From Patescibacteria group bacterium UBA3531 (GTDB lineage: Bacteria > Patescibacteriota > Minisyncoccia > Phycocordibacterales > UBA3531), in NCBI GenBank assembly GCA_002376885.1, contig DFOW01000001.1, forward strand, positions 79,381-143,380: a DNA stretch of 64,000 nt, read 5' to 3'. The notes under the pieces were generated by a model. That model was not told the DNA's origin, searched no databases, and saw only the letters and a program-made list of their open reading frames with translations. Below, piece by piece: positions 1 through 19,107 of this stretch. The translations under genes were made by a program, and so were the position numbers. How positions within the stretch are numbered: position 1 is the stretch's first letter; each line of letters starts with the position of its first letter.

Positions 1-3000
1 TCAATTAAAGACTTGTTTTATGGTTGCCCGCGTCTGTGGCCCCGCATACCCATAGAAGGCATCTGTTGGGATAGCTAAGTTGTGTCTCTCTTGGAACTTC
101 CCGACGGCTTTTCTTGTTAAAGAGCCATAGTAGCCAGTCGTGAGTCCTTCAGGGTAGATAGTCGTGTCTTGAGCAAGGATTTGCTGGAGAAGTCTTGTTT
201 GACTGCTTGTCGTATTGAACCTAAACGGTCCGGTAAGGTTTGTGGTACTGACCGTAAAGGTTTGATCGCCTGTTGGTGAGGTGTTTCCTTGGAGAATGTT
301 ACGTACCGTGTCTAAGGTTGCTTGATCGACATTGAATGAGGTGAGGAGTGTGATGATGGAGGTGACTTGAGCGCTTGTGAGACCTGAACCTGTACTTGGT
401 TGTGATGGTTGGGTTGGGGTGGTTGGGGCGCCTAACCCTCCTCCGAAGCTTGGAGGGAGTGCTGCTACTGATCCCGAGCTTGCACTCGTGTTTGTGGTGC
501 CTCCGGTATTGGTGATCGTGGCGGTGTCACTCGTTACGTCAGTTGATTCTTTGGTATCAGTAAAGGTAGCCGTCAAAATGGTTGATCCGCTGGGCACATT
601 GAGGGCTCCATCACTTCCTGATACAGAACCAGTATTAATACTTGGTGATCCGGTGAAGATACCCGTAGCACTTCCTGTTTCAGTAAGGGTAACCGTTTCC
701 GTATCACCATTTGAAAGTGTTGTAGTGATCGTGAAGGAGTCAGTGCTTGTGGCGCTGGTATTGGCATCACCATCTAAGACGGTGATGGTAGGACTATCAC
801 TGGTGGTGTAGCCCTCTTGATTGAGACTCGTCGTCGACGACGCACTAATGTATCCCGTTGACTCGTTTAAGTAACCTCCTAGGTTGGTGAAGGAGTTAAG
901 GACCGTCGTAACGGCACTGGTAAGGAAGCTTGCTCCTCCATCTAAAGCTAAGTTGTAGTACTGAAGGACGGGGATGGTGGTTTGGGTACTCGTTGCCTTG
1001 TAGGTCACGGTACCGGTACCCGGCGTAAAGGTTCCATTGACGGTGAGTGGTGTTGCGCTTGCGGTGGCATCGGTTAAGTAGAGATTGTTTGATCCGAGTG
1101 AGAAGGTCTCTCCACTTGCAATGGTAAGGCCAGAGCTTGTTGCGTTTGAGGCAAGTGTTAGGGATGCTACTGCTGTACTTGATGAGACGGTCAGGTCTCC
1201 CAGGTCAAAGGCGCCAGAGTTATCGGTATAGGTTGTGGTGCCGTCGATGGTGAAGGCTTCTCCGTTTCGGGTGTAAGAGCCTCCGCTTCCAATGGTAATG
1301 TCTTCTCCTACGGTGAGTGTCACATTGTTCGTGTCTATGTCTAAGTCACCGTCGGTGATGGTGAGATTGTTATCGACGTCAACGTTATTGACGAAGATGA
1401 CGTCGTTGCTTCCTGAAGCGCCGGTATTGTTGATAGTGAGGTTGTAGAAGGAGTCATTGATTTCAATGGTTTGATCGGTACTGGTGGCGGCAAAGATGAT
1501 GGTTGAGGTTCCGACAATGAGTGTCCCTGCCGTATCGAGTGTTAAGTCATCAGTGAAGGTGAGCGTGTTTCCGTTAGTGGTGGTGATAGCCCCTGCGGGG
1601 CTCCCGTTAGATTCACTAAGAGCACCAAAAGTTACAGAACTATCCCCCGAGATAGTGATTTGAGCGTTAACAACACCTGCCAAACCAATAGTTGTTTGTC
1701 CTAATACCGTTAAATCATGTCCAGCAGTGTTGAGCGTTTTAGTTCCAGAAAGAGGGTTTAACGGAAGATTCCCCAGAACGGTAGTACTTCCAGTAAGAGA
1801 GTATGACCCACCAGCAGTAAGAGCTGACAAATCTAAGGTCTTCATAACACCAGCTACAATATTTTCTTGGGTCGTAGTGTCATACTCAAAAGATATTCCA
1901 GAAAAATCACTAGTACCACTATCAACGACCGGTGTTGCAATAGCCGCCCGAAGAATAAAAGTTCCATTTCCTCCACTTGTGCCATCAGTAATAGTTCCTC
2001 CACCAAATGTCAGCACCCTATCAACAGTCACACTCGTAGACAAAGTGGTTGTTTGTCCAGAAGATCCTATGTTTAAATTATAAAAGACGGGAGAAAGAGT
2101 AGTTATTGTTCCTGTTCCATCAAGGATCACTGTGCTTGTTTCATCAGTAAATTTGTTTCCTGAATCCGTCCAATCACCACTTACCGTAATAGTTCCTGAC
2201 CCTCCCAACAAAGATCCTAAACTTGAATCAATAAGAAGGTCTCCATACACCGTCATGTTCTGATTGTTTGCATCAAGAGTGCCAACAACTTTTAAGTCCG
2301 AAGATGTATCACTGTCTCCAACGGTTATACTTGCATCTTGTGTAAGGGTATATCCATCAGGAATATACAATTCATAGTCAGAATCTGTACCAACTGTTAT
2401 TGCACCCCCTGATATAGATAGAAGATCGTCTGAATCAGACGTGTCTGAAGAAGAAACAATGGTGTTTGTTGTCGTTCCTGTATTATCGTTTTTAATGAGA
2501 ATATGATTCTGATACAGATCTAAATTAGCAAGACCCCCAGGACCAACGATAGAAAATGCCGATGCTTTTTCTGTCTCTCCATCTAAATAGATTGCAATAG
2601 CCGCACCTTCAGTAATCCCCGTTGTCGTTGTTGAGAATGAAAAGGTTCCATCAGACGCTGTTGTGGTAGTAAAAAAGTCTGTATTAAGCGTTGAGCCGCC
2701 GCTTACCGAAAGCGCTACTGTTTTACCCGATCCAAGCGCTGTGGAACCCTCATCACTATACGCTGTTCCTTGCATAAACTTTGACTCATACCATGCAATT
2801 TCGGAAGAACCCAAAGCACTAACCACAAAATCAATATCCCCGTCGTCATCAAAATCAGTTGGTACAACGTTCTCTGGGTTGTCCATATAAGTAGTGCCAT
2901 CCTCAACCATTCTTGAGGTAAAGCTAGTATCGCTTCCATCATTTTCAAACCATAACAGTTCATCATCTAACGAACCCGCCACAAAATCAAAATCCCCATC

Positions 3001-3939: not shown

Positions 3940-4047
3940 TTATTATGACCTTACCAATCAGCCCCGTATATATACCTGTCTTCTTCCAGGTCCATATTAG
4001 TATAGCAATCCTAAAAAATAAGGAAACAAAGCTATTAACAGGTGTTT

Positions 4048-5145: not shown

Positions 5146-5146
5146 A

Positions 5147-7195: not shown

Positions 7196-7201
7196 GTACC
7201 C

Positions 7202-7444
7202 TTACGCGCTAATGCCAGCAAGTTCTGCAAGCTTCTCTTTATTGAAGCCAACTAAAACTTGGCCATCAATATCAATAACCGGAACCCCCATTTGCCCCGA
7301 TTTTTCAATCATTTCGTTTCGAGCAGTTTCATCTTGTGTTACATCAACTGCTTCGTACTTTACATTATTTTCATCCAAAAACTCTTTTGTCATTTTACAG
7401 TAATGACAGGTTGGAGTTGTGTAAATCTTTATATTGTGCTCCAT
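7202..7444 (-). CDS. Glutaredoxin-like protein (NrdH/Grx family)
   Basis: 80 aa, CHYC active site at the N-terminus (KIYTTPTCHYCKMTKEFL), thioredoxin-fold pattern. Confidence 0.8.
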   Translation of the reverse strand: MEHNIKIYTTPTCHYCKMTKEFLDENNVKYEAVDVTQDETARNEMIEKSGQMGVPVIDIDGQVLVGFNKEKLAELAGISA

Positions 7445-7581
7445 GGTATTTTATTTATCTAATAAGTGATTCTTATTATATCGCTGAAATGTTATCTCGC
7501 AAAACAAGAAAAGACTCAATCCCCAGGTTTACTAATTTAATCCTTGCCTCGTGCCATACTTTAAACAGAGAGGGGGAGGTC

Positions 7582-7842
7582 ATGTTTGAACTTGTCCTCA
7601 TCTTCATTTCCACGTTCGATGGGAAAATGGCGGGAAGTACCGTCATCAATCATGAGGTCGTTGGTTTGTTCGACACCAAGACTCAATGTGAGCGACACGC
7701 CGACGCCTATGAAGGGGGTACGTGGCGCAAGTTCACGCTCATGGGCTCGAACAAGGACAACGAGAGGGTCCAGGTACAACTCATGATGAAGTGCATGCCA
7801 GCTGGCCAGGGACCGGCAGTTGCGAAGAGGCCGTCCAAATAA
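7582..7842 (+). CDS. Small hypothetical protein encoded in a high-GC patch
   Basis: GGAGG RBS directly upstream of the ATG, G/C-enriched third codon positions. Followed by a GC-rich hairpin (ggccg...cggcc) plus T-run. Confidence 0.4.
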   Translation: MFELVLIFISTFDGKMAGSTVINHEVVGLFDTKTQCERHADAYEGGTWRKFTLMGSNKDNERVQVQLMMKCMPAGQGPAVAKRPSK

Positions 7843-7886
7843 GGCGGCCTTTTCCCTACTCCATAACCCAAAAGTGTTACTCAAAA

Positions 7887-7915
7887 CAAAAGACCCCCCA
7901 ACGGGGCTCTTTTGC
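7887..7915. terminator. Bidirectional intrinsic-terminator-like hairpin (caaaagaCCCC...GGGGctcttttg) between convergent small genes
   Basis: Imperfect GC stem flanked by an A-run upstream and a T-run downstream on the plus strand. Confidence 0.45.
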
Positions 7916-7935
7916 AGCTTCTTTTAATATTAAAA

Positions 7936-8097
7936 TTAGCTCTTTGGGAGTATCTTGTACATCCCGGTACCACAGACGGAACACTTGCCCTTAGCTGCCT
8001 TTCGTCCATTCTTCATGGTAACCTCTTGGACGTCTTGCATCTCTCGGCCCGCTTTGTCCCGACACTTTACGCAGTACCCCATTACTTTGTCTGACAT
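7936..8097 (-). CDS. DUF5679-like small zinc-ribbon protein (53 aa)
   Basis: MSDKVMGYCVKCRDKAGREMQDVQEVTMKNGRKAAKGKCSVCGTGMYKI matches the CxxC-(MKNGR)-CxxCG pattern of the DUF5679 family common in Actinobacteria. Start chosen at the internal Met of the longer 112-aa ORF. Confidence 0.55.
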   Translation of the reverse strand: MSDKVMGYCVKCRDKAGREMQDVQEVTMKNGRKAAKGKCSVCGTGMYKILPKS

Positions 8098-8161
8098 ATA
8101 CAAAAATCCTACCACATAGGCAGGATTTTTGAATAGAGGCCTCCGCTCCTGTGGAAATCGA

Positions 8162-8545
8162 TTATTTGAACCATCCTTTGACTGACCGTGGGATTCCCTG
8201 CACAAAGAAGAGGGCAAGTGGTGCACCAATATTGGCAAATTGTTCAACAAAATCCCAAATCGGTTCTCCTGCAAGTGGGCGAAGCACAGCTGTCCATGTC
8301 CCCCAAAGAGTCATCCATAAGAGAAGAATTGGGATAAGCCGTACCAATACAAGAACCGCAAGGATTATATCCATAATTCCAATAAGTTGGAGCAATTGTG
8401 TGATTTGAGCAGGATCAGTCATTCCTATAACGTTGAAGTATGGGAACCATCCCTCCTTTCCTTGAAGCGCAAATACTCCATGCCCCAAAAATTCTCCCGC
8501 AACAGTAATACGCAAGGTCCATTCAACCTTTTTTTCGTTTGTCAT
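8162..8545 (-). CDS. Hypothetical integral membrane protein (about 4 TM)
   Basis: 127-aa ORF with native low GC and hydrophobic helices. Downstream hairpin aaaaatcctacc...ggcaggattttt (8103..8131). Confidence 0.6.
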   Translation of the reverse strand: MTNEKKVEWTLRITVAGEFLGHGVFALQGKEGWFPYFNVIGMTDPAQITQLLQLIGIMDIILAVLVLVRLIPILLLWMTLWGTWTAVLRPLAGEPIWDFVEQFANIGAPLALFFVQGIPRSVKGWFK

Positions 8546-8950
8546 AGGCTATGTAAAATTATGCTAATAATATTTTATCGACCTCTTTAAAAAAGAGAGG
8601 GAAAATTCACACCTTTATTATATCAAGCGCTCATGATCTAAAAACCAAAAAATCCCCTCTTTATGGGGATTTTTGTCCAGTGTGGTGGACCACACTATCC
8701 CGTCACTCGAACCGCTCCAATTCGCCCTGGTGTCGAACTTCGTCATCCTCTTTGGGACGAGAAGATGCTCGAGATGCAACGCAAATGGATTTGGGAATTG
8801 AATCCGAGATTAGAGAAAGATGAAGTTGAAGCTGCCGTCTATGCGTGGCTTGCGTATGCGGAGTATGTGGTAAGGTTGGTGGAGAGAAAGTGAACCAAAG
8901 AGAAAGGCCCGACCGAGGTCTGACCAATCTCTTGGTTGACCTGTCGGGCC

Positions 8951-9452
8951 CTACTTGTCCAGGTCGACGAACGAGGCGTCGATGAGCGTCAGGTACTCGA
9001 GGTCCGGACTGACGTCGCCGATGACGTTGCCGAGCTCGCCCACATCATCCGGGACGCCGACCACCAGGCACTCGAGGCCCATGTAGGTCACCTTCATGCC
9101 GGACTTGAGAGTCTGGCCCTTGAGCTGCTTGAGCACCTCGCGGGGAATCCCCTCGTCATCACCCCAGGCGAACGCGCGCGGAATCCCGAACCTCTCCAGA
9201 ACGCTGCTCCAGAAGAGCTCCGCGTCCCACTCCTCGTACTCCCCATCGGGATACTCCTCGAGACTTGTGACACGGGCAGCTTCCCGAAGAACGCTCGCCG
9301 GGATGCACGGACGGGTCGTCTCGTCGTCGGTGAAGAGACTCGGGAACCCCTTCTGGAGACCCTCGAGGGGTCGCCTTGTCGTCGGTCAAGCTCACGCAGA
9401 GCCTGAGCCACGGATCGGAGACCTTGCAGATTTCCTGCCAATTCCTGTTCAT
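8951..9452 (-). pseudogene. High-GC gene of unknown function, apparently frameshifted
   Basis: The minus-strand frame reading ...EEYPDGEYEEWDAELFWSSVLERFGIPRAFAWGDDEGIPREVLKQLKGQTLKSGMKVTYMGLECLVVGVPDDVGELGNVIGDVSPDLEYLTLIDASFVDLDK* has almost exclusively G/C at third positions. The only upstream ATG (9452, MNRNWQEICKVSDPWLRL) lies in a different frame. Confidence 0.45.
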
Positions 9453-9588
9453 GGTCCTTCTCTCTCCTTCCTGAATCCGCCAGCCGAAGCTGGTGTGTTC
9501 AGGTAGAGAGAGAAATCACTACCTGGGTGGATAGTGACACAGTATTGTGTATTTGTCTAGACTACGAGATTCACCGTAGTGACGATAG

Positions 9589-9662
9589 TGGACCCGACTG
9601 GATTCGAACCAGCGACCTCCTGAGTGCAAAACAGGTGCTCTAGCCAACTGAGCTACGGGCCC
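9589..9662 (-). tRNA. tRNA-Ala (anticodon UGC)
   Basis: Minus-strand sequence GGGCCCGUAGCUCAGUUGGCUAGAGCACCUGUUUUGCACUCAGGAGGUCGCUGGUUCGAAUCCAGUCGGGUCCA. Acceptor stem carries the G3:U70 wobble that is the Ala identity element, T-loop GGUUCGAAUCC, anticodon loop UUUGCAC. CCA is not encoded. Confidence 0.85.
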
Positions 9663-9738
9663 CTCACATGAAATCGTATTGCACGAAGTGCGTTTGCGAC
9701 TGCAAACAATACCATTTCATGTGAGGGGCTACGGGCCC
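9661..9738. repeat. Hairpin element beside the tRNA 5' end. It has a 14-bp inverted repeat (ccctcacatgaaat / atttcatgtgaggg) with internal sub-hairpins, and is flanked by a 13-bp direct repeat of the tRNA 5' end (gagctacgggccc / gggctacgggccc).
   Basis: Read directly: IR at 9661..9674 and 9715..9728. Inner stems gtattg/caatac, gtttgc-gact-gcaaac, gcac-gaa-gtgc. DR at 9650..9662 and 9726..9738. Confidence 0.6.
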
Positions 9739-9741
9739 TAC

Positions 9742-9999
9742 TCAACCCGCGAGAGAATTATATATTCTTTTCTTCAGATGTGTAAAGGCTCCACTAAATC
9801 TCTTCAACTGCTTTTCTCTATACTTTGCATCAGAACGAGAGTTATAAGCTTCGTAATATACTAACTCAAAAGGAGCCTTACTTTTTGTTGATTTACTCTG
9901 TTTTGTATTATGTTCCTCAAAACGTCTTTTTAAATCATTGGTATAACCAATATAGAGACTTTCATCTGTCTTGCTCTTCAAGACATACACATAATACAT
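9742..9999 (-). CDS. GIY-YIG nuclease-superfamily small protein (UPF0213-like)
   Basis: MYYVYVLKSKTDESLYIGYTNDLKRRFEEHN fits the GIY-x10-YIG motif followed by the R...E...N core. Confidence 0.8.
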   Translation of the reverse strand: MYYVYVLKSKTDESLYIGYTNDLKRRFEEHNTKQSKSTKSKAPFELVYYEAYNSRSDAKYREKQLKRFSGAFTHLKKRIYNSLAG

Positions 10000-10020
10000 A
10001 AGGGCAGAAGAATTATACTG

Positions 10021-10977
10021 TTACTTCCTTAAATGCGCAAGGTCTAAAACATGACCTAAAAAGTCTTTAAAAGACGTCCCTGCGCTCCGCAGGGATTTAT
10101 GCACCAAAGAATCACGGTGGAGCCCCGGCAAGCTGTTTACCTCGAGCAAAAAAACTCCTCGTTTTGGATCAATAATGCAATCAACTCGAGAATAATGACG
10201 CAACCCTAACTTTTTGTGAGCTTGTGCTGCAATGTTTTTAACCATCCAATGCTCTTCTGACGAAAGATCTTCTGGAAAAGTAAGATTTGAAATCTGCTGT
10301 TTAGTTTCGTAATCAAGAATAGGTGTATTTTTTTGGATAACTACAGGCGGCAAAACATGAACCACCCCGTCCCCCTCAACTACAAGAGACGAGACTTCTT
10401 TCCCGTTTATATATTCCTCAACAAGTACAGAATCGCCATATTCAAGAGCCTCCTCTACTCCACGTCTAAGTTCTTCAAACGATCGCGCATAGGATACTCC
10501 AAGTGATGCCCCCTCCCTTGTTGGCTTAATTACCCATGGCGGGCTCACAGAATTAAAAATGTACCTGAGTGCATTTTCTATATCATCGTTTTTGTGGATT
10601 ATGGTTGCATGGGGAATTTTGAATCCATGTTTTTTAAAGTGGTCCCGCGCCAAATGCTTGTGTAATGAGAGCATACTTGGGAACCCTTGCGAGCCCGTAT
10701 ATGGCACTCCTAGAGATTCTAGTATGTGTTGTACTTTTCCATCTTCTCCATACCCGCCATGCAATGCATTAAAGATGATATCTACTTTTCGCGCAGCCTC
10801 TTCTGGAGAAACAGGGGCTCCATATACATGCCATGTTCCATCACGAGCCACAAAAATATCGAGTGTATCAAAGTCTTCAGGAATGTTTTTTAAAACATGT
10901 TGGCCAGAAAGAACAGAAATATCGTAAAGAGAACTTTTGCCCCCACGCAAAACACCAACTACTTTTCGATTAGCCAT
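10021..10977 (-). CDS. ddl: D-alanine--D-alanine ligase (ATP-grasp)
   Basis: N-terminal KVVGVLRGGKSSL, ATP-grasp central region and C-terminal EVNSLPGL motifs. Confidence 0.85.
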   Translation of the reverse strand: MANRKVVGVLRGGKSSLYDISVLSGQHVLKNIPEDFDTLDIFVARDGTWHVYGAPVSPEEAARKVDIIFNALHGGYGEDGKVQHILESLGVPYTGSQGFPSMLSLHKHLARDHFKKHGFKIPHATIIHKNDDIENALRYIFNSVSPPWVIKPTREGASLGVSYARSFEELRRGVEEALEYGDSVLVEEYINGKEVSSLVVEGDGVVHVLPPVVIQKNTPILDYETKQQISNLTFPEDLSSEEHWMVKNIAAQAHKKLGLRHYSRVDCIIDPKRGVFLLEVNSLPGLHRDSLVHKSLRSAGTSFKDFLGHVLDLAHLRK

Positions 10978-11030: not shown

Positions 11031-14000
11031 TTAGTAGACTTCCTTAATCTTCGCACGCGTCATAGGCCCCGCATACCCGTAAAAGGCATCTGTTGGGATA
11101 GCTAAGTTATGTCGCTCTTGGAACTTCCCGACAGCTCGTCTGGTTAAGGTTCCATAGTAGCCAGTGGTTAAGCCTTCAGGGTAGATGGTGGTGTCTTGAG
11201 CAAGGATTTGTTGGAGAAGTCTTGTTTGACTACTGGTGGTATTGAATCTAAAGGGTCCGGTAAGGTTTGTGGTACTGACGGTAAAGGTTTGATTGCCTGT
11301 TGGTGAGGTGTTTCCTTGGAGAATGTTACGTACGGTATCTAAGGTAGTTTGATCAACGTTGAATGAGGTGAGTAGGGTGATTATGGACGTGACTTGGGCG
11401 CTTGTTAAGCCTGAACCTGTGCTTGGTTGTGAGGGCTGGGATGGAGTTTGTGGCTGAGTTGGGGTGGTTGTTTGTTTCCTTGTTCCACCGCTGAAACTTG
11501 GTGGTAGTGATGCTACTGCTCCCGTACTTGTAGTGGTGTTTGTGGTGCCTCCGGTATTGGTGATGGTGGCAGTGTCACTCGTTGTGTCAGTTGACTCTTT
11601 GGTATCAGTGAAGGTGGCCGTCAAAATGGTTGAACCACTTGGCACATTGAGGGCCCCATCACTTCCTGATACAGAGCCAGTATTAATACTTGGTGATCCG
11701 GTGAAGATACCGGTAGCGTTTCCAGTTTCAGTAAGGGTAACAGTTTCGGTGTCACCATTTGAAAGAGATGCGGTAATGGTAAAGGAGTCAGTACTTGTGG
11801 CACTGGTATTAGCATCTCCATCTAAGACGGTGATAGTTGGGCTGTCACTGGTGGTATAGCCATCTTGGTTTAAACTCGTCGTTGATGACGCACTAATGTA
11901 TCCCGTTGATTCGTTTAAGTAACCTCCTAGGTTGGTGAAGGAGTTGAGAACCGTGGTAACCGCACTCGTTAAGAAGCTTGCCCCACCATCGAGGGCTAAG
12001 TTGTAGTACTGAAGGACGGGGATGGTGGTTTGGGTACTGGTTGCCTTGTAGGTCACGGTACCGGTACCGGGAGTAAAGGTTCCGTTGACGGTGAGAGGAG
12101 TACTTGAGGCAGTGGCATCCGTTAAGAAGAGATTGTTTGATCCGAGTGAAAGGGTTTCTCCACTTGCAATGGTTAAGCCAGAGCTTGTGGCATTTGATCC
12201 AAGGGTGAGGGATGCCGCAGCAGTTGTTGAGGCAACGGTGAGATCTCCCAGGTCAAAGGCTCCACTGTTGTCCGTGAAGGTGGTGGTGCCATCGATGGTG
12301 AATGCTTCTCCGTTTCGAGTGTAAGATCCTCCACTTCCAATGGTAATGTCTTCTCCGACCGTTAGGGTGACATTGTTCGTGTCTATGTCTAAGTCACCAT
12401 CGGTGATGGTGAGATTGTTATCGACATCAACGTTATTTGAGAAGATGACGTCATTGCTTCCTGAAGCTCCGGTATTGTTGAGGGTGAGGTTGTAGAAGGA
12501 GTCATTGATTTCAATGGTTTGGTCAGTTGAGCCCGTAAAGGCGACTGTCCCCGTCCCCACAAAAAACGAGTCTGCCGTATCAAAAGTAAAATTTCCGCCA
12601 AGATTAAGAGTATTTCCATTTAGTATTCTTATAATACCCGTTGTAGGAAAAAGATGAGCCTCTGTAACATTTCCATTTATTGTTACGGTACTATCTCCAG
12701 ACAAAACAATATCTCCATCATAAAAACTAGCGGCCCCAAGTTGCGCGTTGCCTTCAATAGTAAGGTCATTCCCATTAGTATCCAAGTCTAAGGTCTTTAC
12801 AAGCCCAGATCTAATTAAAAAATTACCACCAATTGTTGTACTACCCGTTAAAGATAGTACATTACTGGCTGCACCAGAGTTATTACCGAAAAGGGTATAA
12901 TCTTCAAACAGACCTCCCAAAACATTTAAAGACGTAACAACTGTTGGGACCGCATAATAAAAGTCCGTATTAGCCATTAGGACAGTTGAGTTAGATGTAT
13001 TCATGGTTCCTGCATTCAAATAAATTTCGGTATTAGTAAAATCTTTGTGCTCTGTTATTGTCCCAGAACCTGGAAAAAAAATGTTCGTTACATAAAAACT
13101 ATTGGAATCTCCTCCTCGAAGCTGTGTTTCCTTTGTGCTGGTTGCAATTTCAAGATTATAAAATGTTAAATCTGTACCATCGGAGGGTCCGTAATCAATT
13201 CGACCATCCCCGATAAGTTTTACCGTACTTGTGTCGGGGGTAAAAATTGGAGCACCCCAACTACTAAGAGCAGCATACCTTAAAAAAGAAGAGTCTATGG
13301 TTATGGTCTCGTCATTGGCATCAAGTTCTCCAAACGTTCCAATCACTAAATCGCCCGCCCCAACAAAACCCTGTTCATCATCTACAGTTAAACTTGCGTT
13401 AAGGTCAAGAATAGTTGTAATTTGACCGCCGCAGGAACTAATAAAAGACCCGTGCGGTTTTCCTATCGTGAGTCTTCCAACGGTGACTGCTGATGTTACC
13501 GTAACGGTAGTGGTAGATGTTACCGTGTCGTCACACAGGGTCACGTCATACGTATTATCGTTTGGTATGGCACCACAGCTCCAGTTACTAGTTGAATCAG
13601 CCCAATCGGCATTTCCTCCAACCCATGAGCACTCGACTTTAGTACTGTTTGTTGTGGTTGCATTAAAGAATGGCTCTATAGGAAGGGAATAGGTACTACT
13701 GTCTGTTGGTACTGTTTCTCCCTGAGAATCATCACCATACCCCATAGACACAGCCAATATTCCAGTAGCTGCCTCTGCTAGATTAAGTTCCAGTTGGGTT
13801 GTGCCAACAGTGGCAACACTCGATACTGTTTTAGGAATACCATTGTCTGTGACATAAAAACCTCCCGACCCACTTCCCGGAAGAATGGGTCCTGTGTCAT
13901 CAGTAAATGTTAAGGTGATGGTGTCTCTTGTTCCGTTTTCCTCTGCACTAACAAAACGAGGGCCGCGCCCATCATCGGACCCACTATAGTATTCTCCTTC

Positions 14001-15050
14001 AAGTGCTGCCCATATTCTATTCGCAGCTGTTTGTAGGTCTTCGTTTGTTGAAATATGTGATCCATCTGGTGTGGCCAGATCATAAAGGGAGCCGCCAGGA
14101 ACAACATTACTATTATCATTCCATGCATCAACTTGTGCTTCCCTTATGGCATTTTTTGCCTCGTCTGTAGCAGAAGCTGAGACCATACCCACCACAACTG
14201 TTTTTACTCCAAAGTCTGAGTTTATAGCAGAAACAAGTGCATCAAGAGAAGTATTATATGCTGTTGACGCTGCCTGGAAAGCAGAGTCCGATTCTCCCTG
14301 CCAAAAAATAACGGCCTTCACTCCCCCAACACCACCAGCGGTGTTTATTCGTCTTTGCATAGAACCATACAAAGTTGTTGTAGCAGAGTTTTGTGCCCAA
14401 CCGGAAATAAAAGATCCAGATTTTGCTGCCGGAATAAAAGCAACAGGTACCCCCTGATCGGCAAGAAAGCGGGTAGCAACAAGGGGCCACACAGAACCCC
14501 CAGGAAAAGTAGAATCATCACTCACACTATCAACCTGATTAGTACTATCGTCTGTCGGATCAGTAAGTTCTTTCCAATTATCGTCGTTTCCAAAAAGAGA
14601 TGCTGCGAGAGTTGAGTGGGAATAGCTTTGGTTATTATCCCCTTTTCCTACTCCATTGCTTTGCCCCGCAATCACAAAAATATCACCAATACCAATCGTA
14701 GTAGTTGAATTACTGGTGTCGGTATCATCAGTAAACCGCACTTCAAGTGTTCCCTGCCCCGCTGTTTGATTAGTAGTTGTCCCAGTAAAAGCACCTCCAC
14801 TAGGGGAAGCGTCAATAGTTGTCCAGGACCCCCCATTAAAACGCGCTTCAATTGCTGCCGGAGAACCAGTATACGTACCTGAAATAGGGATATCTGCCTG
14901 ATCAGAACCGTCGCGTTGGAAAACCTGATACGGAACAGGTGAAGTTATTGTAACCGTTTGTGCGTAAGAGAAACTAGGTAAAAAAAACACAAAAAAAGTG
15001 ACCGGAAGGATCAGGAATAGGCACTTTTTTTCTGGAATTATTTTTTCCAT
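11031..15050 (-). CDS. Giant secreted surface protein with an N-terminal SASA/SGNH-type carbohydrate esterase domain. It then has a Cys/Trp motif region, a beta-helix-like Thr-rich region and the shared C-terminal module with a putative peptidoglycan-binding domain.
   Basis: Signal peptide. Esterase blocks IAGQSNGVGKG (Ser nucleophile), VIFWQGESDS, TPDGSHIS. Motif CSWVGGNADWADSTSNWSCGAIP. The C-terminal 620 aa are near-identical to the 1..3939 protein. Confidence 0.8.
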   Translation of the reverse strand: MEKIIPEKKCLFLILPVTFFVFFLPSFSYAQTVTITSPVPYQVFQRDGSDQADIPISGTYTGSPAAIEARFNGGSWTTIDASPSGGAFTGTTTNQTAGQGTLEVRFTDDTDTSNSTTTIGIGDIFVIAGQSNGVGKGDNNQSYSHSTLAASLFGNDDNWKELTDPTDDSTNQVDSVSDDSTFPGGSVWPLVATRFLADQGVPVAFIPAAKSGSFISGWAQNSATTTLYGSMQRRINTAGGVGGVKAVIFWQGESDSAFQAASTAYNTSLDALVSAINSDFGVKTVVVGMVSASATDEAKNAIREAQVDAWNDNSNVVPGGSLYDLATPDGSHISTNEDLQTAANRIWAALEGEYYSGSDDGRGPRFVSAEENGTRDTITLTFTDDTGPILPGSGSGGFYVTDNGIPKTVSSVATVGTTQLELNLAEAATGILAVSMGYGDDSQGETVPTDSSTYSLPIEPFFNATTTNSTKVECSWVGGNADWADSTSNWSCGAIPNDNTYDVTLCDDTVTSTTTVTVTSAVTVGRLTIGKPHGSFISSCGGQITTILDLNASLTVDDEQGFVGAGDLVIGTFGELDANDETITIDSSFLRYAALSSWGAPIFTPDTSTVKLIGDGRIDYGPSDGTDLTFYNLEIATSTKETQLRGGDSNSFYVTNIFFPGSGTITEHKDFTNTEIYLNAGTMNTSNSTVLMANTDFYYAVPTVVTSLNVLGGLFEDYTLFGNNSGAASNVLSLTGSTTIGGNFLIRSGLVKTLDLDTNGNDLTIEGNAQLGAASFYDGDIVLSGDSTVTINGNVTEAHLFPTTGIIRILNGNTLNLGGNFTFDTADSFFVGTGTVAFTGSTDQTIEINDSFYNLTLNNTGASGSNDVIFSNNVDVDNNLTITDGDLDIDTNNVTLTVGEDITIGSGGSYTRNGEAFTIDGTTTFTDNSGAFDLGDLTVASTTAAASLTLGSNATSSGLTIASGETLSLGSNNLFLTDATASSTPLTVNGTFTPGTGTVTYKATSTQTTIPVLQYYNLALDGGASFLTSAVTTVLNSFTNLGGYLNESTGYISASSTTSLNQDGYTTSDSPTITVLDGDANTSATSTDSFTITASLSNGDTETVTLTETGNATGIFTGSPSINTGSVSGSDGALNVPSGSTILTATFTDTKESTDTTSDTATITNTGGTTNTTTSTGAVASLPPSFSGGTRKQTTTPTQPQTPSQPSQPSTGSGLTSAQVTSIITLLTSFNVDQTTLDTVRNILQGNTSPTGNQTFTVSTTNLTGPFRFNTTSSQTRLLQQILAQDTTIYPEGLTTGYYGTLTRRAVGKFQERHNLAIPTDAFYGYAGPMTRAKIKEVY

Positions 15051-15152
15051 TTTGAATGATTATAGCACAGGGTCGCATTATGCCTGTGGATATGCTATAA
15101 GGTTTCTAGATTTATAACCTATTGCCCTTCGTGGCTAGGAAAGGACAGTACC

Positions 15153-16295
15153 TTGAGACATCGAAGTCGAGTCATGTTTTTTATGGCCGTAGTGGTCATG
15201 ATGAACATCGGTGCAAACGATTGCCAGAACAACCAGGCACCGGTCCCCTCTCCGCTTCCTCAGCCTCTCATGACGATGCTTGCAGGAAACGATATGGAGG
15301 TTCGTGGGAACGACTGCCCTGTCACCTCGACATTTGTTGAGGCAAGCTGGAACGGAGGCCCTTGGATCTACGTCGGCTCATGCACCCTCGGTGAGTACGA
15401 AGGATTTCTGCCTCCCCAGGGGGCTGGCCATGGAATCCTCGCCATCCGAGACAACACAGGGCAGATCCTCCGAACGACACTTTCTGTCGGATGGGGTCTA
15501 CCGATCGAGATCACCGGCCAGTCGAATGCCACTGGCCTCATGGAAACCTTGATCAATGCGATCTCTTCGCTTGCTTCGGTATTCATGGTCGGCCACCAGA
15601 ACGAGGCCGAATCCATCAAGCACGCCGACGATCGCTTCACCGACCACGGCAATGGCTCTGCGTGGCCCCTCCTTGCAGATGAAATCATTGGACAGACAGG
15701 GCTTCCTGTCATGTTCATTTCTTCACCGGTGGGGGCAACATCAGTCAGCCAGTGGGTTCCTGGTGGGAATCTTCGCGAAAGGGCGAAGGATCTGAGAATG
15801 ACCGCAACGAATGATTGTTCGGCTGCAGACATCTTCTACCAGGGAGAGAACGAACCTGTATTCGCCTCTAATCCCACGATCGATCCCGAAACGGGTCTGA
15901 CTTTTGGCGAGCTGTGGCTCGCCTCAATCGGGGGAGATTTGAAGCAGTACTACAAGGGAGAGCTCTTCAAGATCGCAGACGATCACATGAATGCGGGGTG
16001 TGGAGGAACTCCGCTTGTCATCGTCCAGATTGGAGACAATACTGCCAACCAGAATCCAGGTATCCAGGGCTTCATCCAAGAGGTTCGGGACGCCCAGTAC
16101 GAGGCAGCAATCGAGCACCCCAACATCCACCTGGGAGCCTGTACTGCCGGTCTTCCGGTCCCTGACGGTCTCCACCTGGGCGATGATGCTCGAGAGGAAT
16201 TCGTTTCGCGACTCATGAAAGGCTTGGCGCCAGTGCTCTGGGGTGGGCCGGTTCCAACCGACGAAGAGCTTGGATGCACGCCTCCGCAAGTCTAG
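15153..16295 (+). CDS. SASA/SGNH-type carbohydrate esterase encoded in a high-GC island (homologous to the N-terminal domain of the adjacent giant protein)
   Basis: Blocks ITGQSNATG, SAWPLLADEIIGQTGLPVMFISSPVGATSVSQW, IFYQGENEP, VPDGLHLGDD. Strong G/C third-position bias. The start may instead be the Met at 15174. GC-rich terminator follows the stop. Confidence 0.7.
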   Translation: MRHRSRVMFFMAVVVMMNIGANDCQNNQAPVPSPLPQPLMTMLAGNDMEVRGNDCPVTSTFVEASWNGGPWIYVGSCTLGEYEGFLPPQGAGHGILAIRDNTGQILRTTLSVGWGLPIEITGQSNATGLMETLINAISSLASVFMVGHQNEAESIKHADDRFTDHGNGSAWPLLADEIIGQTGLPVMFISSPVGATSVSQWVPGGNLRERAKDLRMTATNDCSAADIFYQGENEPVFASNPTIDPETGLTFGELWLASIGGDLKQYYKGELFKIADDHMNAGCGGTPLVIVQIGDNTANQNPGIQGFIQEVRDAQYEAAIEHPNIHLGACTAGLPVPDGLHLGDDAREEFVSRLMKGLAPVLWGGPVPTDEELGCTPPQV

Positions 16296-16313
16296 CACTC
16301 GAACTTTTCACAA

Positions 16314-16346
16314 GGGCCACGTACTTCCGGTACGTGGCCCTTTTCG
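16314..16346. terminator. Intrinsic terminator hairpin gggccacgtac-ttccg-gtacgtggccc followed by a T-run, between the convergent esterase and giant-protein genes
   Basis: Perfect 11-bp GC-rich stem read directly, with ttttcgtt downstream. Confidence 0.6.
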
Positions 16347-16371
16347 TTCATATAGTTATATGTTTTTTCTC

Positions 16372-19107
16372 TTACTTCTCAAATACCTCCCTCATCTTTG
16401 CTCTAGTTTGTGGTCCTGCATACCCATAAGCAGGGTGGTCTGGTCCTGCAATGGTGTGGCGAATCTGGAACCGTTCTACAGCTTTGGTAGTAAGTGTTCC
16501 ATAGTAGCCAGTGATTAATCCTTCAGGGTAGATAGTAGGGTCCTGAGCGAGTATTTGTTGGAGTAATCTGTTTTGTGGCGTGGTTTGGTTCACCTGGAAA
16601 GGCCCTGTGAGTTGTGAGACATCAATTGCATAGGTGGTTTGTTGTGATTGGTTTCCTTCTAAAATACGTCGTACAGTCTCAAGAGTGATTTGATCTACAT
16701 TAAAAGAGGTGAGAAGCGTAATAATGGAGGTGATTTGAGAGTTTGAGAGGCTGCTTCCTGTGCTTGGTTGAGTTGGAGTGATTGGAGTACTGCCCGTATT
16801 TTGTGAGAAACTTGGGGGGAGAACAGCAACAGAGCCGGTGGATGAAGAGGATGAGGACCCAGAAGCGGCGGCAGCTTGGGACGCTGAATGAGTAACCGTT
16901 GCCGTATCGGTCGAGATATCGATTGATTCTTTTGAATCAATGAACGTTAATGTAAGAGTATCATTCCCACCAATGGGGAAATCAAGTGTACCGTCTCCTG
17001 TTGTCACGCTTCCTGTCGCAAGCGTAATGGTTCCAGTAAAGACACCTGTTGCATTGCCAGTTTCAGTTAAGGTAACAGTTTCTGTATCAGTTGCAATAGT
17101 GGTGGTGGCCACAATACTATCGGTCGAAGTGGCACTAATATTCGCGTCGTAGTCAGTAACCGTAAGGGTAACCGTATCCCCTGTTTCGTAAGAGGTTGCA
17201 TCAAGTGCCGCAGATGAAGAAGCACTAATGTAACCCGTTGCTTCGTTCAGATAACCAGCACTATTGGTAAAGGTTCCTGTAACAGTGGTCACCCCTTCTG
17301 TCACAAACGAGGCTGCCCCTCCTAGAGTTAAATTATTGTATTGAGTAGCTTCAATAGTGGTTTGAGTTGAGGTTGCCTTGTAGTTAACAGTACCTGTTCC
17401 TGGAGTGAAAGTTCCGTTTACAGTCAGGGGAGTTGAGCTTCCAGTGGCATCAGTAAGGTACAGCGTATTGGAACCAAGGGCCAAGGTTTCTCCACTTCCC
17501 ACCACGATACCAGAACTTGTTGCATTTGATCCCAAAGTGAAGGTTGCAGCAGCTGAGGATGAGGCAATAGTAAATTCTCCTAGGTTGAACACCCCAGAGT
17601 TATCTGTATAGGTAGTAGTACCATCAAAAGTAAGTGATTCATTTGTTCGGGTCCAAGCCCCATTTAGTCCCACGGTAAAGTCTCCCCCTATCGTGAGGGT
17701 CGCATCGTTGGTATCAATATCCAAATCCCCGTCAGTTAGTGTAAGGTCATTATCGACATCAACATTGTTGGTAAATATCACATCGTCATTCCCTGTTGAG
17801 CCAGTATGATTTACCACAAGATCGTAGAAAGAGTTTCCTGCAACCATATCAATTGTTTGATCAGTTGAAGTTGCAACCAGGTTTACTGTTGACGTTCCAA
17901 AACTAAATGTTGCTGTTTCAGCCCCGTTTACCATGTCGATATCGCCAGAAAAATTCACTGTATTACCATTATGTACTTGTATAGCTGCTGACTCCCCATT
18001 ATTTTCATACGCAGTAAAATCGTGAAAAGACGCGGTACTGTTTCCTGTGACATCAATACGAGAGGGATAATATACAACATTTACCCCAAGTAGGTCTTCT
18101 CCTAGTTGGGTGGTTCCATACTGAACATCAAGATCATAACCCGCAGTAGTTAAGGTGGAAACATTTGTATCGTGGTTGCCGTAAAACCTAAAGCCAGTTG
18201 ATGTTGCTGTGATATCACCAGTAAGAGTTAGCGTCATAGCACCCCCAGCATTGTCTGCTCTTCCGATATCAATGCCATTTGCTGTGAAAGGAGGTATGTT
18301 GTGAGTAGTTCCTAGGGCAGTAAATTGAATCCTTGTAACCGGCGTAAGAGCAACTCCGTTTCTCAAAACTACAGGTGTGGTGTTAATACTTGAGCTAGGA
18401 AATGATAGTGAGTCGTTCCCCAAAAAACCAATAAATGGTGCTCCATTCAAAACAAGCTGGTGATTAATACTAATAGGAGTAGAATAAGCAATCGACCAAA
18501 AGGAAGTCTGAATGTGCACCAACTTATAAAAAACTAGTGTTGAGTTATCGGTTGTAGTAACAAAATGCCCAGTAAGTCCATCAAAAACATATGTTGCTGT
18601 CTCTGGCTGAATTCCTTGCAAGGAGGATGTAACAGTACTCCCCAAGCGTCCAAAAATAGTTGTTGTTCCTGTTCCTGGATAATATCTTCCTCGAGAGTTG
18701 GCATTAAGGAACCCGGCCTCTGTAAATCCCTCTGAGTTGGTGATCGTAACATTTGCTCCATCGTTTATGTCAACCGTATGGATCCTACTATTACATGTTG
18801 AAGTGGTTGAACCAACTTGGAGTCTCCCCAGTGTGATACTTGTTGTGGCCGTAACTGTAATATTTCCACTTGCAGAAGTGTTACAAATATCTACATTGTA
18901 CTCTGCACCATCTGGAAAAGCGCCACAACTCCAGTTACTAACTGAGTCAAACCATCCTCCACTTCCATCTTTTATCCAATTACATTTTGTTTCGGCGGCA
19001 TACACAAATGTACCACCCAAAAAAGAGAGTCCCATAAAGAGCAAAGACAGAAACAATGCAAAAAAGGGAAAGTTTTTTAAATTTTTTTTACTAAAAAATT
19101 TTTTCAT
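16372..19107 (-). CDS. Giant secreted surface protein, paralog 3. Cys/Trp-motif N-terminal head, beta-helix-like Thr-rich region, and a diverged copy of the shared C-terminal module with putative peptidoglycan-binding domain.
   Basis: Signal peptide/TM at the N-terminus. CNWIKDGSGGWFDSVSNWSCGAFP motif. TSTDQTID...NNVDVDNDLTLTDGDLDIDTN block and C-terminal ITSIITLLTSFNVDQ...YPEGLITGYYG...YGYAGP, each aligning with the other two giants. Confidence 0.8.
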   Translation of the reverse strand: MKKFFSKKNLKNFPFFALFLSLLFMGLSFLGGTFVYAAETKCNWIKDGSGGWFDSVSNWSCGAFPDGAEYNVDICNTSASGNITVTATTSITLGRLQVGSTTSTCNSRIHTVDINDGANVTITNSEGFTEAGFLNANSRGRYYPGTGTTTIFGRLGSTVTSSLQGIQPETATYVFDGLTGHFVTTTDNSTLVFYKLVHIQTSFWSIAYSTPISINHQLVLNGAPFIGFLGNDSLSFPSSSINTTPVVLRNGVALTPVTRIQFTALGTTHNIPPFTANGIDIGRADNAGGAMTLTLTGDITATSTGFRFYGNHDTNVSTLTTAGYDLDVQYGTTQLGEDLLGVNVVYYPSRIDVTGNSTASFHDFTAYENNGESAAIQVHNGNTVNFSGDIDMVNGAETATFSFGTSTVNLVATSTDQTIDMVAGNSFYDLVVNHTGSTGNDDVIFTNNVDVDNDLTLTDGDLDIDTNDATLTIGGDFTVGLNGAWTRTNESLTFDGTTTYTDNSGVFNLGEFTIASSSAAATFTLGSNATSSGIVVGSGETLALGSNTLYLTDATGSSTPLTVNGTFTPGTGTVNYKATSTQTTIEATQYNNLTLGGAASFVTEGVTTVTGTFTNSAGYLNEATGYISASSSAALDATSYETGDTVTLTVTDYDANISATSTDSIVATTTIATDTETVTLTETGNATGVFTGTITLATGSVTTGDGTLDFPIGGNDTLTLTFIDSKESIDISTDTATVTHSASQAAAASGSSSSSSTGSVAVLPPSFSQNTGSTPITPTQPSTGSSLSNSQITSIITLLTSFNVDQITLETVRRILEGNQSQQTTYAIDVSQLTGPFQVNQTTPQNRLLQQILAQDPTIYPEGLITGYYGTLTTKAVERFQIRHTIAGPDHPAYGYAGPQTRAKMREVFEK

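What the first reader, a model, noticed from the sequence alone, without database searches (positions are those of the whole stretch)
1..19107. Three paralogous giant surface proteins share a C-terminal anchoring module but carry different functional heads
ORFs 1..3939, 11031..15050 and 16372..19107 (all minus strand) end in the same roughly 500 to 620-aa module. It begins at TSTDQTIE/D..FYNL and runs through a beta-helix-like NNVDVDNNLTITDGDLDIDTNN block, a Thr/Ser-rich region and a PTQPSQPSTG linker to a PG_binding_1-like domain. The N-terminal heads are unrelated: an FG-GAP/VCBS propeller, a SASA-type esterase, and a different Cys/Trp-motif head. Copies 1 and 2 are about 95 percent identical in protein and copy 3 about 60 percent. 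This looks like a head-swapping cassette system for cell-surface display. It is the kind of accessory architecture seen in episymbiotic small-genome bacteria but not described as a defined system.
Basis: partly seen in the sequence, partly recalled or inferred. Interest (0 to 1): 0.7.

Follow-up and report, generated by a model that had tools for sequence, protein, structure and literature searches.

The report
Wall-anchored stalk proteins with different heads
A tiny-genome marine bacterium encodes three related surface fibres with the same conserved stalk base and cell-wall anchor but different tips (a binding propeller, a sugar-deacetylating enzyme, or none); this is an ordinary modular gene family, not an active gene-shuffling device.

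Summary
The three minus-strand ORFs are real and share a C-terminal module of about 495 aa. A and B are 93% identical in protein and 86% in DNA; each is 63-64% identical to C. The similarity is not low-complexity. The module contains a beta-solenoid segment, an Ig-like domain homologous to the Nitrosopumilus S-layer protein (PDB 8C8K), a Ser/Thr/Pro linker, a helical segment and PG_binding_1.

Two corrections apply. Homology extends through the whole stalk. C's "Cys/Trp head" is a stalk N-cap that B also has, so C is headless. A carries an FG-GAP propeller and B a SASA esterase with intact catalytic motifs.

The organism is a marine Patescibacteria MAG from Tara Oceans.

A related genome lacks the C-SASA2-B block between uvrC and ddl. 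At A's position it has a headless homologue. The family therefore expanded and gained or lost heads over evolutionary time.

The A and B modules coalesce later than their N-terminal parts, which indicates one old recombination. However, dS is about 0.56, omega about 0.09, and the longest identical run is 44 nt. I found no recombinase, inverted repeats or silent cassettes. An active cassette system is not supported.

The best reading is a family of peptidoglycan-anchored display fibres. Interest is modest.

The parts
1..3939 (-). Gene A (1312 aa; NCBI MAZ40905.1, 'hypothetical protein'). Order of parts: signal peptide, FG-GAP propeller, spacer plus variable solenoid, shared module.
2755..3855 (-). 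A head: FG-GAP_3 repeats (aa about 29-395). Seven DNA repeat units with a period of about 156 nt, each with a DxDxDGD Ca-loop-like motif, suggest a seven-bladed propeller.
   Evidence: Pfam PF13517, 125 bits, 6 stretches. Direct-repeat families D4 (7 copies) and D6.
1483..2754 (-). A spacer plus fast-evolving part of the beta-solenoid stalk (aa 396-819). It has no Cys/Trp cap.
   Evidence: 26-35% identity to the equivalent parts of B, C and P0033. No Pfam hit for aa 395-530.
4..1482 (-). A copy of the shared module (aa 820-1312): conserved solenoid 817-1482, Ig-like domain 505-816, Ser/Thr/Pro linker 385-504, helical segment plus PG_binding_1 4-384.
   Evidence: PG_binding_1 at aa 1246-1306. 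Ig-like domain.
11031..15050 (-). Gene B (1339 aa; MAZ40893.1). Order of parts: signal peptide, beta-sandwich, SASA esterase, beta-sandwich, Cys/Trp cap plus variable solenoid, shared module.
13647..14960 (-). B head. N-terminal beta-sandwich-like region (14691-14960). SASA/SGNH esterase (14040-14684, aa 123-337) with GQSN, QGESD and DGSH motifs. Post-catalytic sandwich-like region (13647-14039).
   Evidence: Pfam PF03629, 92 bits. Aligns to Arabidopsis esterase 2APJ, E 1.9e-9, with the motifs in register. The sandwich assignments are inferred; the only support is a weak SWM_repeat hit, E 1e-3.
12531..13640 (-). B Cys/Trp N-cap (CSWVGGNADWADSTSNWSC, four Cys at aa 474, 492, 506 and 540) plus variable solenoid.
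11034..12530 (-). B copy of the shared module (aa 841-1339): conserved solenoid 11865-12530, Ig-like domain 11553-11864, linker 11412-11552, helical segment plus PG_binding_1 11034-11411.
16372..19107 (-). Gene C (911 aa; 90%-identity cluster of MAZ40891.1), the headless stalk. Signal peptide 18997-19107. Cys/Trp cap plus variable solenoid 17869-18993. Shared module 16375-17868, made of solenoid 17197-17868, Ig-like domain 16885-17196, linker 16753-16884 and helical segment plus PG_binding_1 16375-16752.
   Evidence: The AF2 model shows only short beta-strands with pLDDT about 55-89 (ten-residue block means) over aa 260-620.
15153..16295 (+). Stand-alone SASA-like esterase gene between B and C on the opposite strand (NCBI start gives 370 aa). 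It is a distant paralogue of B's head, including the N-terminal sandwich. It is part of the same lineage-specific insertion.
   Evidence: Pfam SASA, E 2.3e-5. BLASTP to B's head: 22% over 337 aa, E 5e-14. GQSN, QGEN and DGLH motifs read.
11031..19107 (.). The C-SASA2-B block, about 8.1 kb, inserted between uvrC (19279-20496) and ddl (10021-10977). In a relative these two genes are adjacent.

Best explanation
A, B and C are paralogous secreted proteins of a marine Patescibacteria (Parcubacteria-like) bacterium.

**Proposed architecture and mechanism**
- Each protein is exported by an N-terminal signal peptide.
- Each is held non-covalently in the cell's own peptidoglycan by a C-terminal PG_binding_1 domain.
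- A flexible Ser/Thr/Pro linker, one Ig-like domain of the Nitrosopumilus S-layer type and a long beta-solenoid form a stalk. The stalk projects the N-terminal end away from the wall.
- A displays a seven-bladed FG-GAP propeller, a likely Ca-dependent binding head.
- B displays a SASA/SGNH carbohydrate O-acetylesterase with an intact catalytic motif set.
- C is the bare stalk, starting with a disulfide-type Cys/Trp cap that B also has.

**Proposed evolution**
- The family grew by duplication or insertion, and by fusion of heads onto a headless ancestor-like stalk.
- At least one old recombination or gene conversion gave A and B the same C-terminal module of about 495 aa.
- Since then the module has been kept by strong purifying selection.

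**What is shown and what is inferred**
- Shown: domain content, homology, selection pattern and the comparison with a related genome.
- Inferred: export, anchoring to the cell's own wall, the stalk geometry, and any role in contact with or modification of a host cell surface.
For: - Domain hits: PG_binding_1 in all three, FG-GAP_3 in A, SASA in B.
- SASA catalytic motifs align with the solved esterase 2APJ.
- The AF2 model of C shows only short beta-strands, with pLDDT about 55-89 (ten-residue block means) over aa 260-620. The weak top Foldseek hits are all beta-helix adhesins or tailspikes.
- A profile of the Ig-like domain hits NmSLP 8C8K at E 7.7e-27. Its AF2 model has pLDDT 96.9. Its best Foldseek match is 8C8K, TM 0.74, probability 1.00.
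- The proteins are acidic and Thr/Ser-rich: pI about 4.1, K+R 3-3.6%, T+S 27%.
- Module statistics: 93% identity for A-B, dS 0.56, dN 0.05, omega 0.09. For A-C and B-C omega is about 0.10.
- Mosaic age signal at four-fold sites.
- In a relative (UvrB 72% identical) uvrC and ddl are adjacent. The ychF-leuS position holds P0033: signal peptide, Cys/Trp cap, solenoid, Ig-like domain, PG_binding_1 and no head.
- Other proteins combine the same stalk pieces with other heads or anchors:
  - P0078: GDSL esterase inserted in the solenoid.
  - P0040: an unknown head upstream of the cap, plus PG_binding_1.
  - P0060, P0132 and P0057: DUF2341 with or without a LamG head.
  - P0016 and P0088: SLH anchor.
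- The genome has peptidoglycan synthesis genes (ddl in the window, yceG next to it).
- Parcubacteria genomes are reported to carry diverse attachment and adhesion proteins (PMC4508563).
Against: - There is no experimental or expression evidence.
- The signal peptides were read by eye only.
- The solenoid has no Pfam or PDB sequence match, and the full-length model is low-confidence overall (mean pLDDT 54).
- PG_binding_1 scores are only just above threshold.
- The domain could bind another cell's wall rather than the cell's own.
- A plain spacer-plus-anchor role does not explain one observation. A solenoid core of about 75 aa (A about 900-975) is 80-85% identical even to the relative's P0033, although UvrB between the two genomes is only 72% identical.
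Confidence: 0.68

Rival explanations
1. Active head-swapping or antigenic-variation cassette system. The shared module would serve as a recombination substrate, so that heads are exchanged between expression sites within a population.
For: - The A/B similarity has a sharp boundary at A aa about 815-825.
- The A/B module is younger than the A/B N-terminal parts.
- Three copies lie within 19 kb.
Against: - dS is 0.56 and the longest identical run is 44 nt, so there has been no recent conversion.
- The same conserved/variable boundary appears in A-C and B-C. For comparisons with the relative's P0033, conservation begins further downstream, at about A aa 880-900. The boundary is therefore largely a constraint boundary.
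- All copies are complete, separately startable genes. None is a silent cassette.
- The repeats are direct, with essential genes between them.
- No recombinase or invertible-element repeats were found.
- Three assemblies have an identical arrangement.
Confidence: 0.05
2. S-layer-like co-assembly. The shared module would be a lattice-forming or bundle-forming unit. Headless C would be the main subunit, and A and B would be minor subunits that co-assemble through the conserved solenoid core and Ig-like domain, decorating the layer with heads.
For: - The Ig-like domain is homologous to the ninth domain of the N. maritimus S-layer protein, which forms the membrane-proximal base of that S-layer.
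- The composition is acidic and poor in Lys/Arg, like NmSLP (PMC11153153).
- The solenoid core is extremely conserved, 80-85% across genomes, as expected for an interaction surface.
- S-layer proteins with beta-helix or Ig-like lattice domains, PG-binding anchors and modular architecture have been described, including predicted ones in Paceibacterales (bioRxiv 10.1101/2024.05.28.596244).
- Homologues P0016 and P0088 use SLH anchors.
Against: - There is only one Ig-like domain per protein.
- No oligomer model was computed.
- No abundance data exist.
- A single elongated solenoid looks more like a fibre than a lattice tile.
Confidence: 0.15
3. Secreted effectors aimed at another cell. PG_binding_1 plus the solenoid would target a host or prey cell wall, as in endolysin wall-binding domains or phage tailspikes. 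The esterase would strip O-acetyl groups from host glycans or peptidoglycan.
For: - Two independent fusions join SGNH-type esterases to this stalk: SASA at the N-terminus in B, and GDSL inserted in the solenoid of P0078.
- A further stand-alone SASA gene lies next to B.
- The weak structural neighbours are beta-helix tailspikes and adhesins.
- From general knowledge: PG_binding_1 is common in wall hydrolases.
Against: - No hydrolase or lytic domain was found in A, B or C.
- A C-terminal anchor with an outward head is the usual layout of a cell's own wall-bound proteins.
- No viral relatives were found.
- The headless C has no effector domain.
Confidence: 0.1

Closest known systems
Families of Gram-positive wall-associated proteins that share a conserved non-covalent anchoring module and carry variable functional domains. 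Examples are Clostridioides difficile Cwp proteins (CWB2 repeats), Bacillus SLH-domain proteins, pneumococcal choline-binding proteins and Listeria GW/LysM proteins (comparison from general knowledge).
   Same: - Several paralogues occur in one genome.
- A conserved wall-binding end is combined with different enzymatic or adhesive domains, or with none.
- The proteins are exported by a signal peptide.
- The family evolves by duplication and domain shuffling.
   Different: - The anchor here is a single PG_binding_1. No CWB2, SLH, LysM, GW or LPXTG element was found.
- The shared part is much larger, about 495 aa. It includes a solenoid segment and an Ig-like domain that are as conserved as the anchor.
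- The host organism is a Patescibacteria MAG.
Nitrosopumilus maritimus S-layer protein NmSLP (Nmar_1547; PDB 8C8K-8C8R; PMC11153153)
   Same: - The Ig-like domain of the module is homologous in sequence and fold to NmSLP Ig-like domains. The best sequence match (residues 1508-1596) falls within what the paper models as the ninth, membrane-proximal domain.
- Both have an acidic composition poor in Lys and Arg.
   Different: - NmSLP is an array of ten Ig-like domains that forms a hexagonal lattice in an archaeon.
- Here one such domain sits between a beta-solenoid and a peptidoglycan anchor in a bacterium.
Beta-helical fibrous adhesins and tailspikes: EtpA, Hap, Hbp and pertactin passengers, tapirins, and phage tailspikes, some of which carry SGNH deacetylase domains (the last point from general knowledge).
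   Same: - An elongated beta-solenoid presents or contains a binding or enzymatic activity.
- The top Foldseek neighbours of the C model are of this class.
   Different: - All structural matches are insignificant (best E 9e-3, TM no higher than 0.22).
- There is no autotransporter or two-partner-secretion element and no Pfam Beta_helix hit.
- Anchoring is by PG_binding_1.
SASA / DUF303 SGNH esterases (Pfam PF03629; solved example 2APJ)
   Same: B's head matches the family above threshold, with the GQSN, GESD and DxxH blocks aligned.
   Different: It is fused to a stalk of about 870 aa plus an anchor. The substrate is unknown.

Membership tests
PG_binding_1 (PF01471) | Match to the Pfam model at or above the gathering score (23 bits). 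| tested here: met
   A scores 31.2 bits, B 29.0 and C 27.1, each at the extreme C-terminus. The motif variant IYPEGL.TGYYG.LT..AV..FQ is shared with many small Patescibacteria-type PG_binding_1 proteins.
PG_binding_1 (PF01471) | Actual binding to peptidoglycan. | not testable with these tools
   This needs a pull-down with sacculi.
FG-GAP / integrin-alpha-type beta-propeller (PF13517) | Repeated FG-GAP units above threshold, about seven blades with DxDxDG loops. | tested here: met
   125.4 bits against a cut-off of 26.9, in 6 stretches. Seven DNA repeats with a period of about 156 nt. DFDEDGD-type motifs can be read. There is no solved sequence relative, and the fold was not modelled.
SASA carbohydrate esterase (PF03629, SGNH fold) | Family match plus a catalytic Ser in GQSN, the GESD block and Asp-x-x-His. 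| tested here: met
   92.3 bits against a cut-off of 24.8. GQSN, QGESD and DGSH align with 2APJ. Activity and substrate were not tested.
Right-handed parallel beta-helix (pectate-lyase-like; Pfam Beta_helix and relatives) | A sequence or structure match to a known beta-helix family. | tested here: inconclusive
   No Pfam, NCBIfam or PDB sequence hit. AF2 gives a solenoid of short strands with pLDDT about 55-89 (ten-residue block means) over C aa 260-620. The Foldseek neighbours are all beta-helices, but none reaches E 1e-3.
NmSLP-type Ig-like domain (N. maritimus S-layer protein) | Sequence-profile and fold similarity to NmSLP domains. | tested here: met
   hmmsearch E 7.7e-27 to 8c8k_A. AF2 pLDDT 96.9. 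Foldseek TM 0.74, 27% identity, probability 1.00. No Pfam model covers the domain.
Recombinational antigenic/phase-variation cassette system | Silent or partial donor cassettes plus an expression site. | tested here: not met
   All three are full-length ORFs with an ATG and a signal-peptide-like N-terminus. tblastn finds no further fragments in the window.
Recombinational antigenic/phase-variation cassette system | A recombinase and/or flanking inverted repeats, or long identical tracts showing ongoing conversion. | tested here: not met
   No inverted repeats lie at the genes. The ORFs scanned between and beside the genes are housekeeping, or have no Pfam hit. The longest A-B identical run is 44 nt and dS is 0.56.
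Recombinational antigenic/phase-variation cassette system | Alternative arrangements within a population. | tested here: inconclusive
   Three assemblies have the same order, but they are 99.99-100% identical. Reads were not available.
Diversity-generating retroelement target | A template/variable repeat pair and a reverse transcriptase nearby. | tested here: not met
   No additional repeat pair matches the variable stalk. No RT was found among the scanned ORFs. Only the window was examined.
Gram-positive wall-protein families (CWB2, SLH, LysM, choline-binding, LPXTG) | Presence of the family's anchor domain or motif. | tested here: not met
   None was reported by Pfam at E up to 0.1. SLH occurs only in distant homologues P0016 and P0088. 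These families are analogues; A, B and C are not members.
S-layer protein | Forms a 2-D lattice and is a highly abundant envelope protein. | not testable with these tools
   No multimer prediction or expression data were available.

The most novel reading that the evidence does not exclude
The roughly 495-aa module may be more than a spacer and anchor. It could be a docking or co-assembly scaffold. Its solenoid core of about 75 aa is 80-85% identical between genomes whose UvrB is only 72% identical. That core, together with the S-layer-type Ig-like domain, would let headless and head-bearing paralogues assemble into one envelope structure of a Patescibacteria cell. Heads could then be added, lost or exchanged during evolution without disturbing assembly.
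Probability: 0.15. Interest if true: 0.6.

Novelty: new variant of a known kind. Interest (0 to 1): 0.3.

Why it matters
How Patescibacteria cells, which depend on other microbes, attach to and work on partner surfaces is poorly known. This locus gives a concrete, testable set of parts:
- a peptidoglycan anchor;
- a conserved stalk base that includes an S-layer-type Ig-like domain with no Pfam model;
- three tips: binding, esterase and none.

It also shows that a 'shared module' can come from purifying selection plus one old recombination, without an active shuffling mechanism. The conceptual advance is small, because modular wall-anchored protein families are well known.

Tried and rejected
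- **Word-index protein searches saturated.** The word-index protein search saturated on these Thr/Ser/Gly-rich queries. One search missed even the query's own clusters, and (an N-cap alignment) returned nothing. The exhaustive representative search was used instead.
- **Collection scans.**
  - Genome contigs gave one weak Saprospiraceae hit.
  - Metagenome contigs gave nothing. A second scan with the conserved core gave one distant archaeal solenoid protein, L012.
  - Viral contigs gave nothing.
- **No family match for the stalk.** NCBIfam and a PDB sequence search with the stalk profile gave nothing.
- **Full-length AF2 model of C was poor outside the solenoid.** Mean pLDDT was 54, and its Foldseek search gave no significant match.
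- **The promoter/terminator consensus scan was uninformative.** It found 25 promoter-like sites against 33.7 expected from shuffles.
- **Comparing assemblies for variants failed.** The assemblies are the same population.
- **Readings considered and rejected.**
  - DGR targeting: no template repeat or RT was found.
  - Mobile island: no integrase was found, and tRNA-Ala does not lie at the block's edge.
  - Similarity due to low complexity only: rejected by the domain hits and omega 0.09.
Full report
**1. Observation**

The window contains three long minus-strand ORFs:
- A: 1..3939, 1312 aa
- B: 11031..15050, 1339 aa
- C: 16372..19107, 911 aa

Their translations end in a common module. It begins at (T)STDQTIE/D...FY(N/D)L, at A aa 820, B aa 841 and C aa 414, and runs to the C-terminus, 493-499 aa in all.

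Identity in the module is 93.1% for A-B, 63.7% for A-C and 64.1% for B-C. A-B DNA identity is 85.6% over 1495 nt. tblastn finds no further copy in the 64 kb window.

Pfam finds the following:
- PG_binding_1 at the extreme C-terminus of all three, above the gathering score
- FG-GAP_3 in A (six stretches; the DNA shows seven units of about 156 nt)
- SASA in B

**2. Corrections to the description**

Homology is not limited to the module. B 461-1339 aligns with C 29-909 (46% over 920 aa), and A 413-1311 aligns with B 442-1339. Upstream of the module the stalk is only 26-35% identical in every pair.

C's 'Cys/Trp head' is CNWIKDGSGGWFDSVSNWSC. It corresponds to CSWVGGNADWADSTSNWSC at B aa 474. The four cysteines have the same spacing in both: C 42/61/75/105 and B 474/492/506/540. 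It is therefore an N-terminal cap of the stalk and not a third kind of head. C is headless, and A lacks this cap.

**3. What the module is made of**

(a) *A beta-solenoid.* The AF2 model of C shows only short strands from about aa 40 to 630. Ten-residue block means of pLDDT are about 55-89 over aa 260-620, and the overall mean is 54. Foldseek gives no significant hit, but every top neighbour is a beta-helix adhesin, tailspike or lyase. There is no Pfam, NCBIfam or PDB sequence match.

(b) *An Ig-like domain of about 104 aa (A 1042-1145).*
- Pfam has no model for it.
- A 41-sequence profile hits the Nitrosopumilus maritimus S-layer protein (PDB 8C8K) at E 7.7e-27. The best match is to residues 1508-1596, which fall within what the paper models as the ninth, membrane-proximal Ig-like domain (PMC11153153).
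- AF2 gives pLDDT 96.9.
- Foldseek's best match is again 8C8K: TM 0.74, 27% identity, probability 1.00.

(c) *A Ser/Thr/Pro-rich linker.*

(d) *A helical segment (TSIITLLTSFNVDQ) followed by PG_binding_1.* The helical segment is invariant in A, B and C.

The proteins are acidic (pI about 4.1), with 27% Thr+Ser and only 3-3.6% Lys+Arg.

**4. Distribution**

An exhaustive profile search of 1.84 billion representatives found only the A, B and C clusters matching the whole profile.

Sub-profiles split the other top hits into three independent classes:
- solenoid only, in proteins up to about 6000 aa
- the Ig-like domain, in tandem arrays of up to 39 copies in proteins up to 7180 aa
- PG_binding_1, mostly in small proteins

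Only P0033 combines the conserved solenoid, the Ig-like domain and PG_binding_1.

Other combinations exist:
- P0078: cap, then solenoid with an inserted GDSL esterase, then Ig-like domain and a different C-terminus
- P0040: an unknown head upstream of the cap, then cap, solenoid and PG_binding_1
- P0060 and P0132: DUF2341 with or without a LamG head, plus solenoid
- P0057: DUF2341, Ig-like domain and PG_binding_1
- P0016 and P0088: SLH anchors

The parts are therefore widespread and freely recombined over evolutionary time. The particular 495-aa combination is lineage-specific.

**5. Source and context**

The window is record positions 84182-148181 of a 245.6 kb contig (ENA ERZ27286447). The same sequence is in a Tara Oceans assembly and in NCBI GCA_002708165.1, where the proteins are 'hypothetical protein [bacterium]'.

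All named top hits to the window's UvrB are Patescibacteria, Parcubacteria or Paceibacterota, at 67-70% identity.

The neighbours are housekeeping genes, in this order: leuS | A | ychF, ROK, trxB, grx, small ORFs, tRNA-Ala, GIY-YIG ORF, ddl | B | SASA2(+) | C | uvrC, uvrA, uvrB.

**6. Comparison with a relative**

A 54.5 kb contig from a relative (UvrB 72% identical) has uvrB, trypsin-like gene, uvrA, a small ORF, uvrC and ddl in a row. Nothing lies between uvrC and ddl. The C-SASA2-B block (about 8.1 kb) is therefore a lineage-specific insertion.

On the same contig, the position between ychF and leuS holds P0033 (995 aa). It consists of a signal peptide, a Cys/Trp cap, solenoid, Ig-like domain, PG_binding_1 and a Gln-rich tail. 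It has no head. A small DUF5671 gene lies between P0033 and leuS. A's propeller was therefore either gained in the window's lineage or lost in the relative.

SASA2 has the same sandwich-plus-SASA layout as B's head but is only 22% identical. This is compatible with B's head having arisen by fusion of such a gene to a stalk.

**7. Is it an active cassette system?**

*Evidence that the module was exchanged once.* At four-fold sites of conserved residues, A and B share the third base at 65% in the module (random 30%) but at 22% upstream (random 28%). A-C and B-C modules are near random, at 34-38%.

*Evidence against ongoing exchange.*
- Module dS is 0.56, dN 0.05 and omega 0.09.
- The longest identical run is 44 nt.
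- The step from variable to conserved sequence lies at the same place in A-C and B-C. For comparisons with P0033 it lies further downstream, at about A aa 880-900. The boundary is thus largely a boundary of constraint.
- The copies are direct repeats with essential genes between them.
- No inverted repeats, recombinase genes, partial cassettes or DGR-type repeats were found.
- Three assemblies share the arrangement, but they are 99.99-100% identical and so add little.

**8. Mechanism proposed**

The proposed steps are: Sec export, non-covalent anchoring in the cell's own peptidoglycan by PG_binding_1, and an outward-projecting linker, Ig-like domain and solenoid stalk. The stalk would display a binding propeller (A), an O-acetylesterase (B) or nothing (C).

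The cell makes peptidoglycan: ddl is in the window and yceG lies nearby.

B's catalytic blocks (GQSN, QGESD, DGSH) align with the solved esterase 2APJ.

Two independent fusions of SGNH esterases to this stalk (B and P0078), plus the adjacent SASA2 gene, suggest that the stalk works together with glycan deacetylation. This is inference.

A role in partner-cell contact fits reports that Parcubacteria genomes carry diverse attachment proteins (PMC4508563), but it is not shown here.

**9. Rivals**

- *S-layer-like co-assembly through the module.* Support comes from the NmSLP homology, the acidic composition, the 80-85% conserved solenoid core, and published modular S-layer proteins with PG-binding anchors, including predicted ones in Paceibacterales.
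- *Effectors aimed at a host wall.*
- *An active cassette system.*

**10. Verdict**

This is a real and well-delimited paralogous family of wall-anchored modular surface proteins in a Patescibacteria MAG. It is a new variant of a well-known kind. Its two side points of interest are an S-layer-type Ig-like domain that lacks a Pfam model and an unusually conserved solenoid core. Interest is 0.3.

Noticed in passing
window 15153-16295 (+): A stand-alone SASA-like esterase gene lies between B and C on the opposite strand. It has GQSN, QGEN and DGLH motifs and the same sandwich-plus-SASA layout as B's head, but is only 22% identical to it.
   Followed up: partly
window about 1014-1242 (A aa about 900-975); equivalent parts of B and C; L009 8001-10988 (P0033): A solenoid core of about 75 aa (FDGTTTYTDNSG...LTLGSNATSSG...GETLSLGSN.LYLTDAT...PLTVNGTFTPGT.TV.YKATST) is 80-85% identical between this genome and a relative whose UvrB is only 72% identical. 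A spacer role does not explain this much conservation.
   Followed up: partly
window 505-816, 11553-11864, 16885-17196; proteins P0035-P0050 and others: The Ig-like domain of the module is homologous to N. maritimus S-layer protein domains and has no Pfam model. It occurs in tandem arrays of up to 39 copies in proteins of up to 7180 aa in public metagenomes.
   Followed up: partly
window 9588-9999: tRNA-Ala(TGC) lies at 9588-9662 (-). A 23-nt inverted repeat, 96% complementary, spans 9659-9729 and overlaps the tRNA's 5' end. A strong promoter-like site lies at 9757-9786 (-). Just upstream is an 85-aa stand-alone GIY-YIG ORF at 9742-9999 (-).
   Followed up: no
window 38404-39690 (-), 34495-35385 (-), 37255-38394 (-): Three domain families that looked unexpected to me in a small-genome bacterium (an impression, not checked): a Lysyl_oxidase-domain protein (E 2.6e-11), a CAP/cysteine-rich secretory family protein, and a glucose/sorbosone dehydrogenase.
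   Followed up: no
window 7200-9500: This stretch has higher G+C (0.487 for 8001-10000) and only small ORFs without Pfam hits, apart from a DUF5679 protein at 7936-8274 (-). Public gene calls differ between assemblies here.
   Followed up: no
L012 6414-8480 (contig Ga0315274_10000012, 348 kb): An archaeal contig (an MCM gene lies nearby) encodes a 688-aa protein built from the same solenoid repeat (GTGTWTFDGTTTYTDNN...LTLAS) with a W...NW cap-like motif. The stalk repeat type therefore occurs in both bacteria and archaea.
   Followed up: partly
window 20989-23541 (-): UvrA is short, at 850 aa. The relative's orthologue is 845 aa.
   Followed up: no
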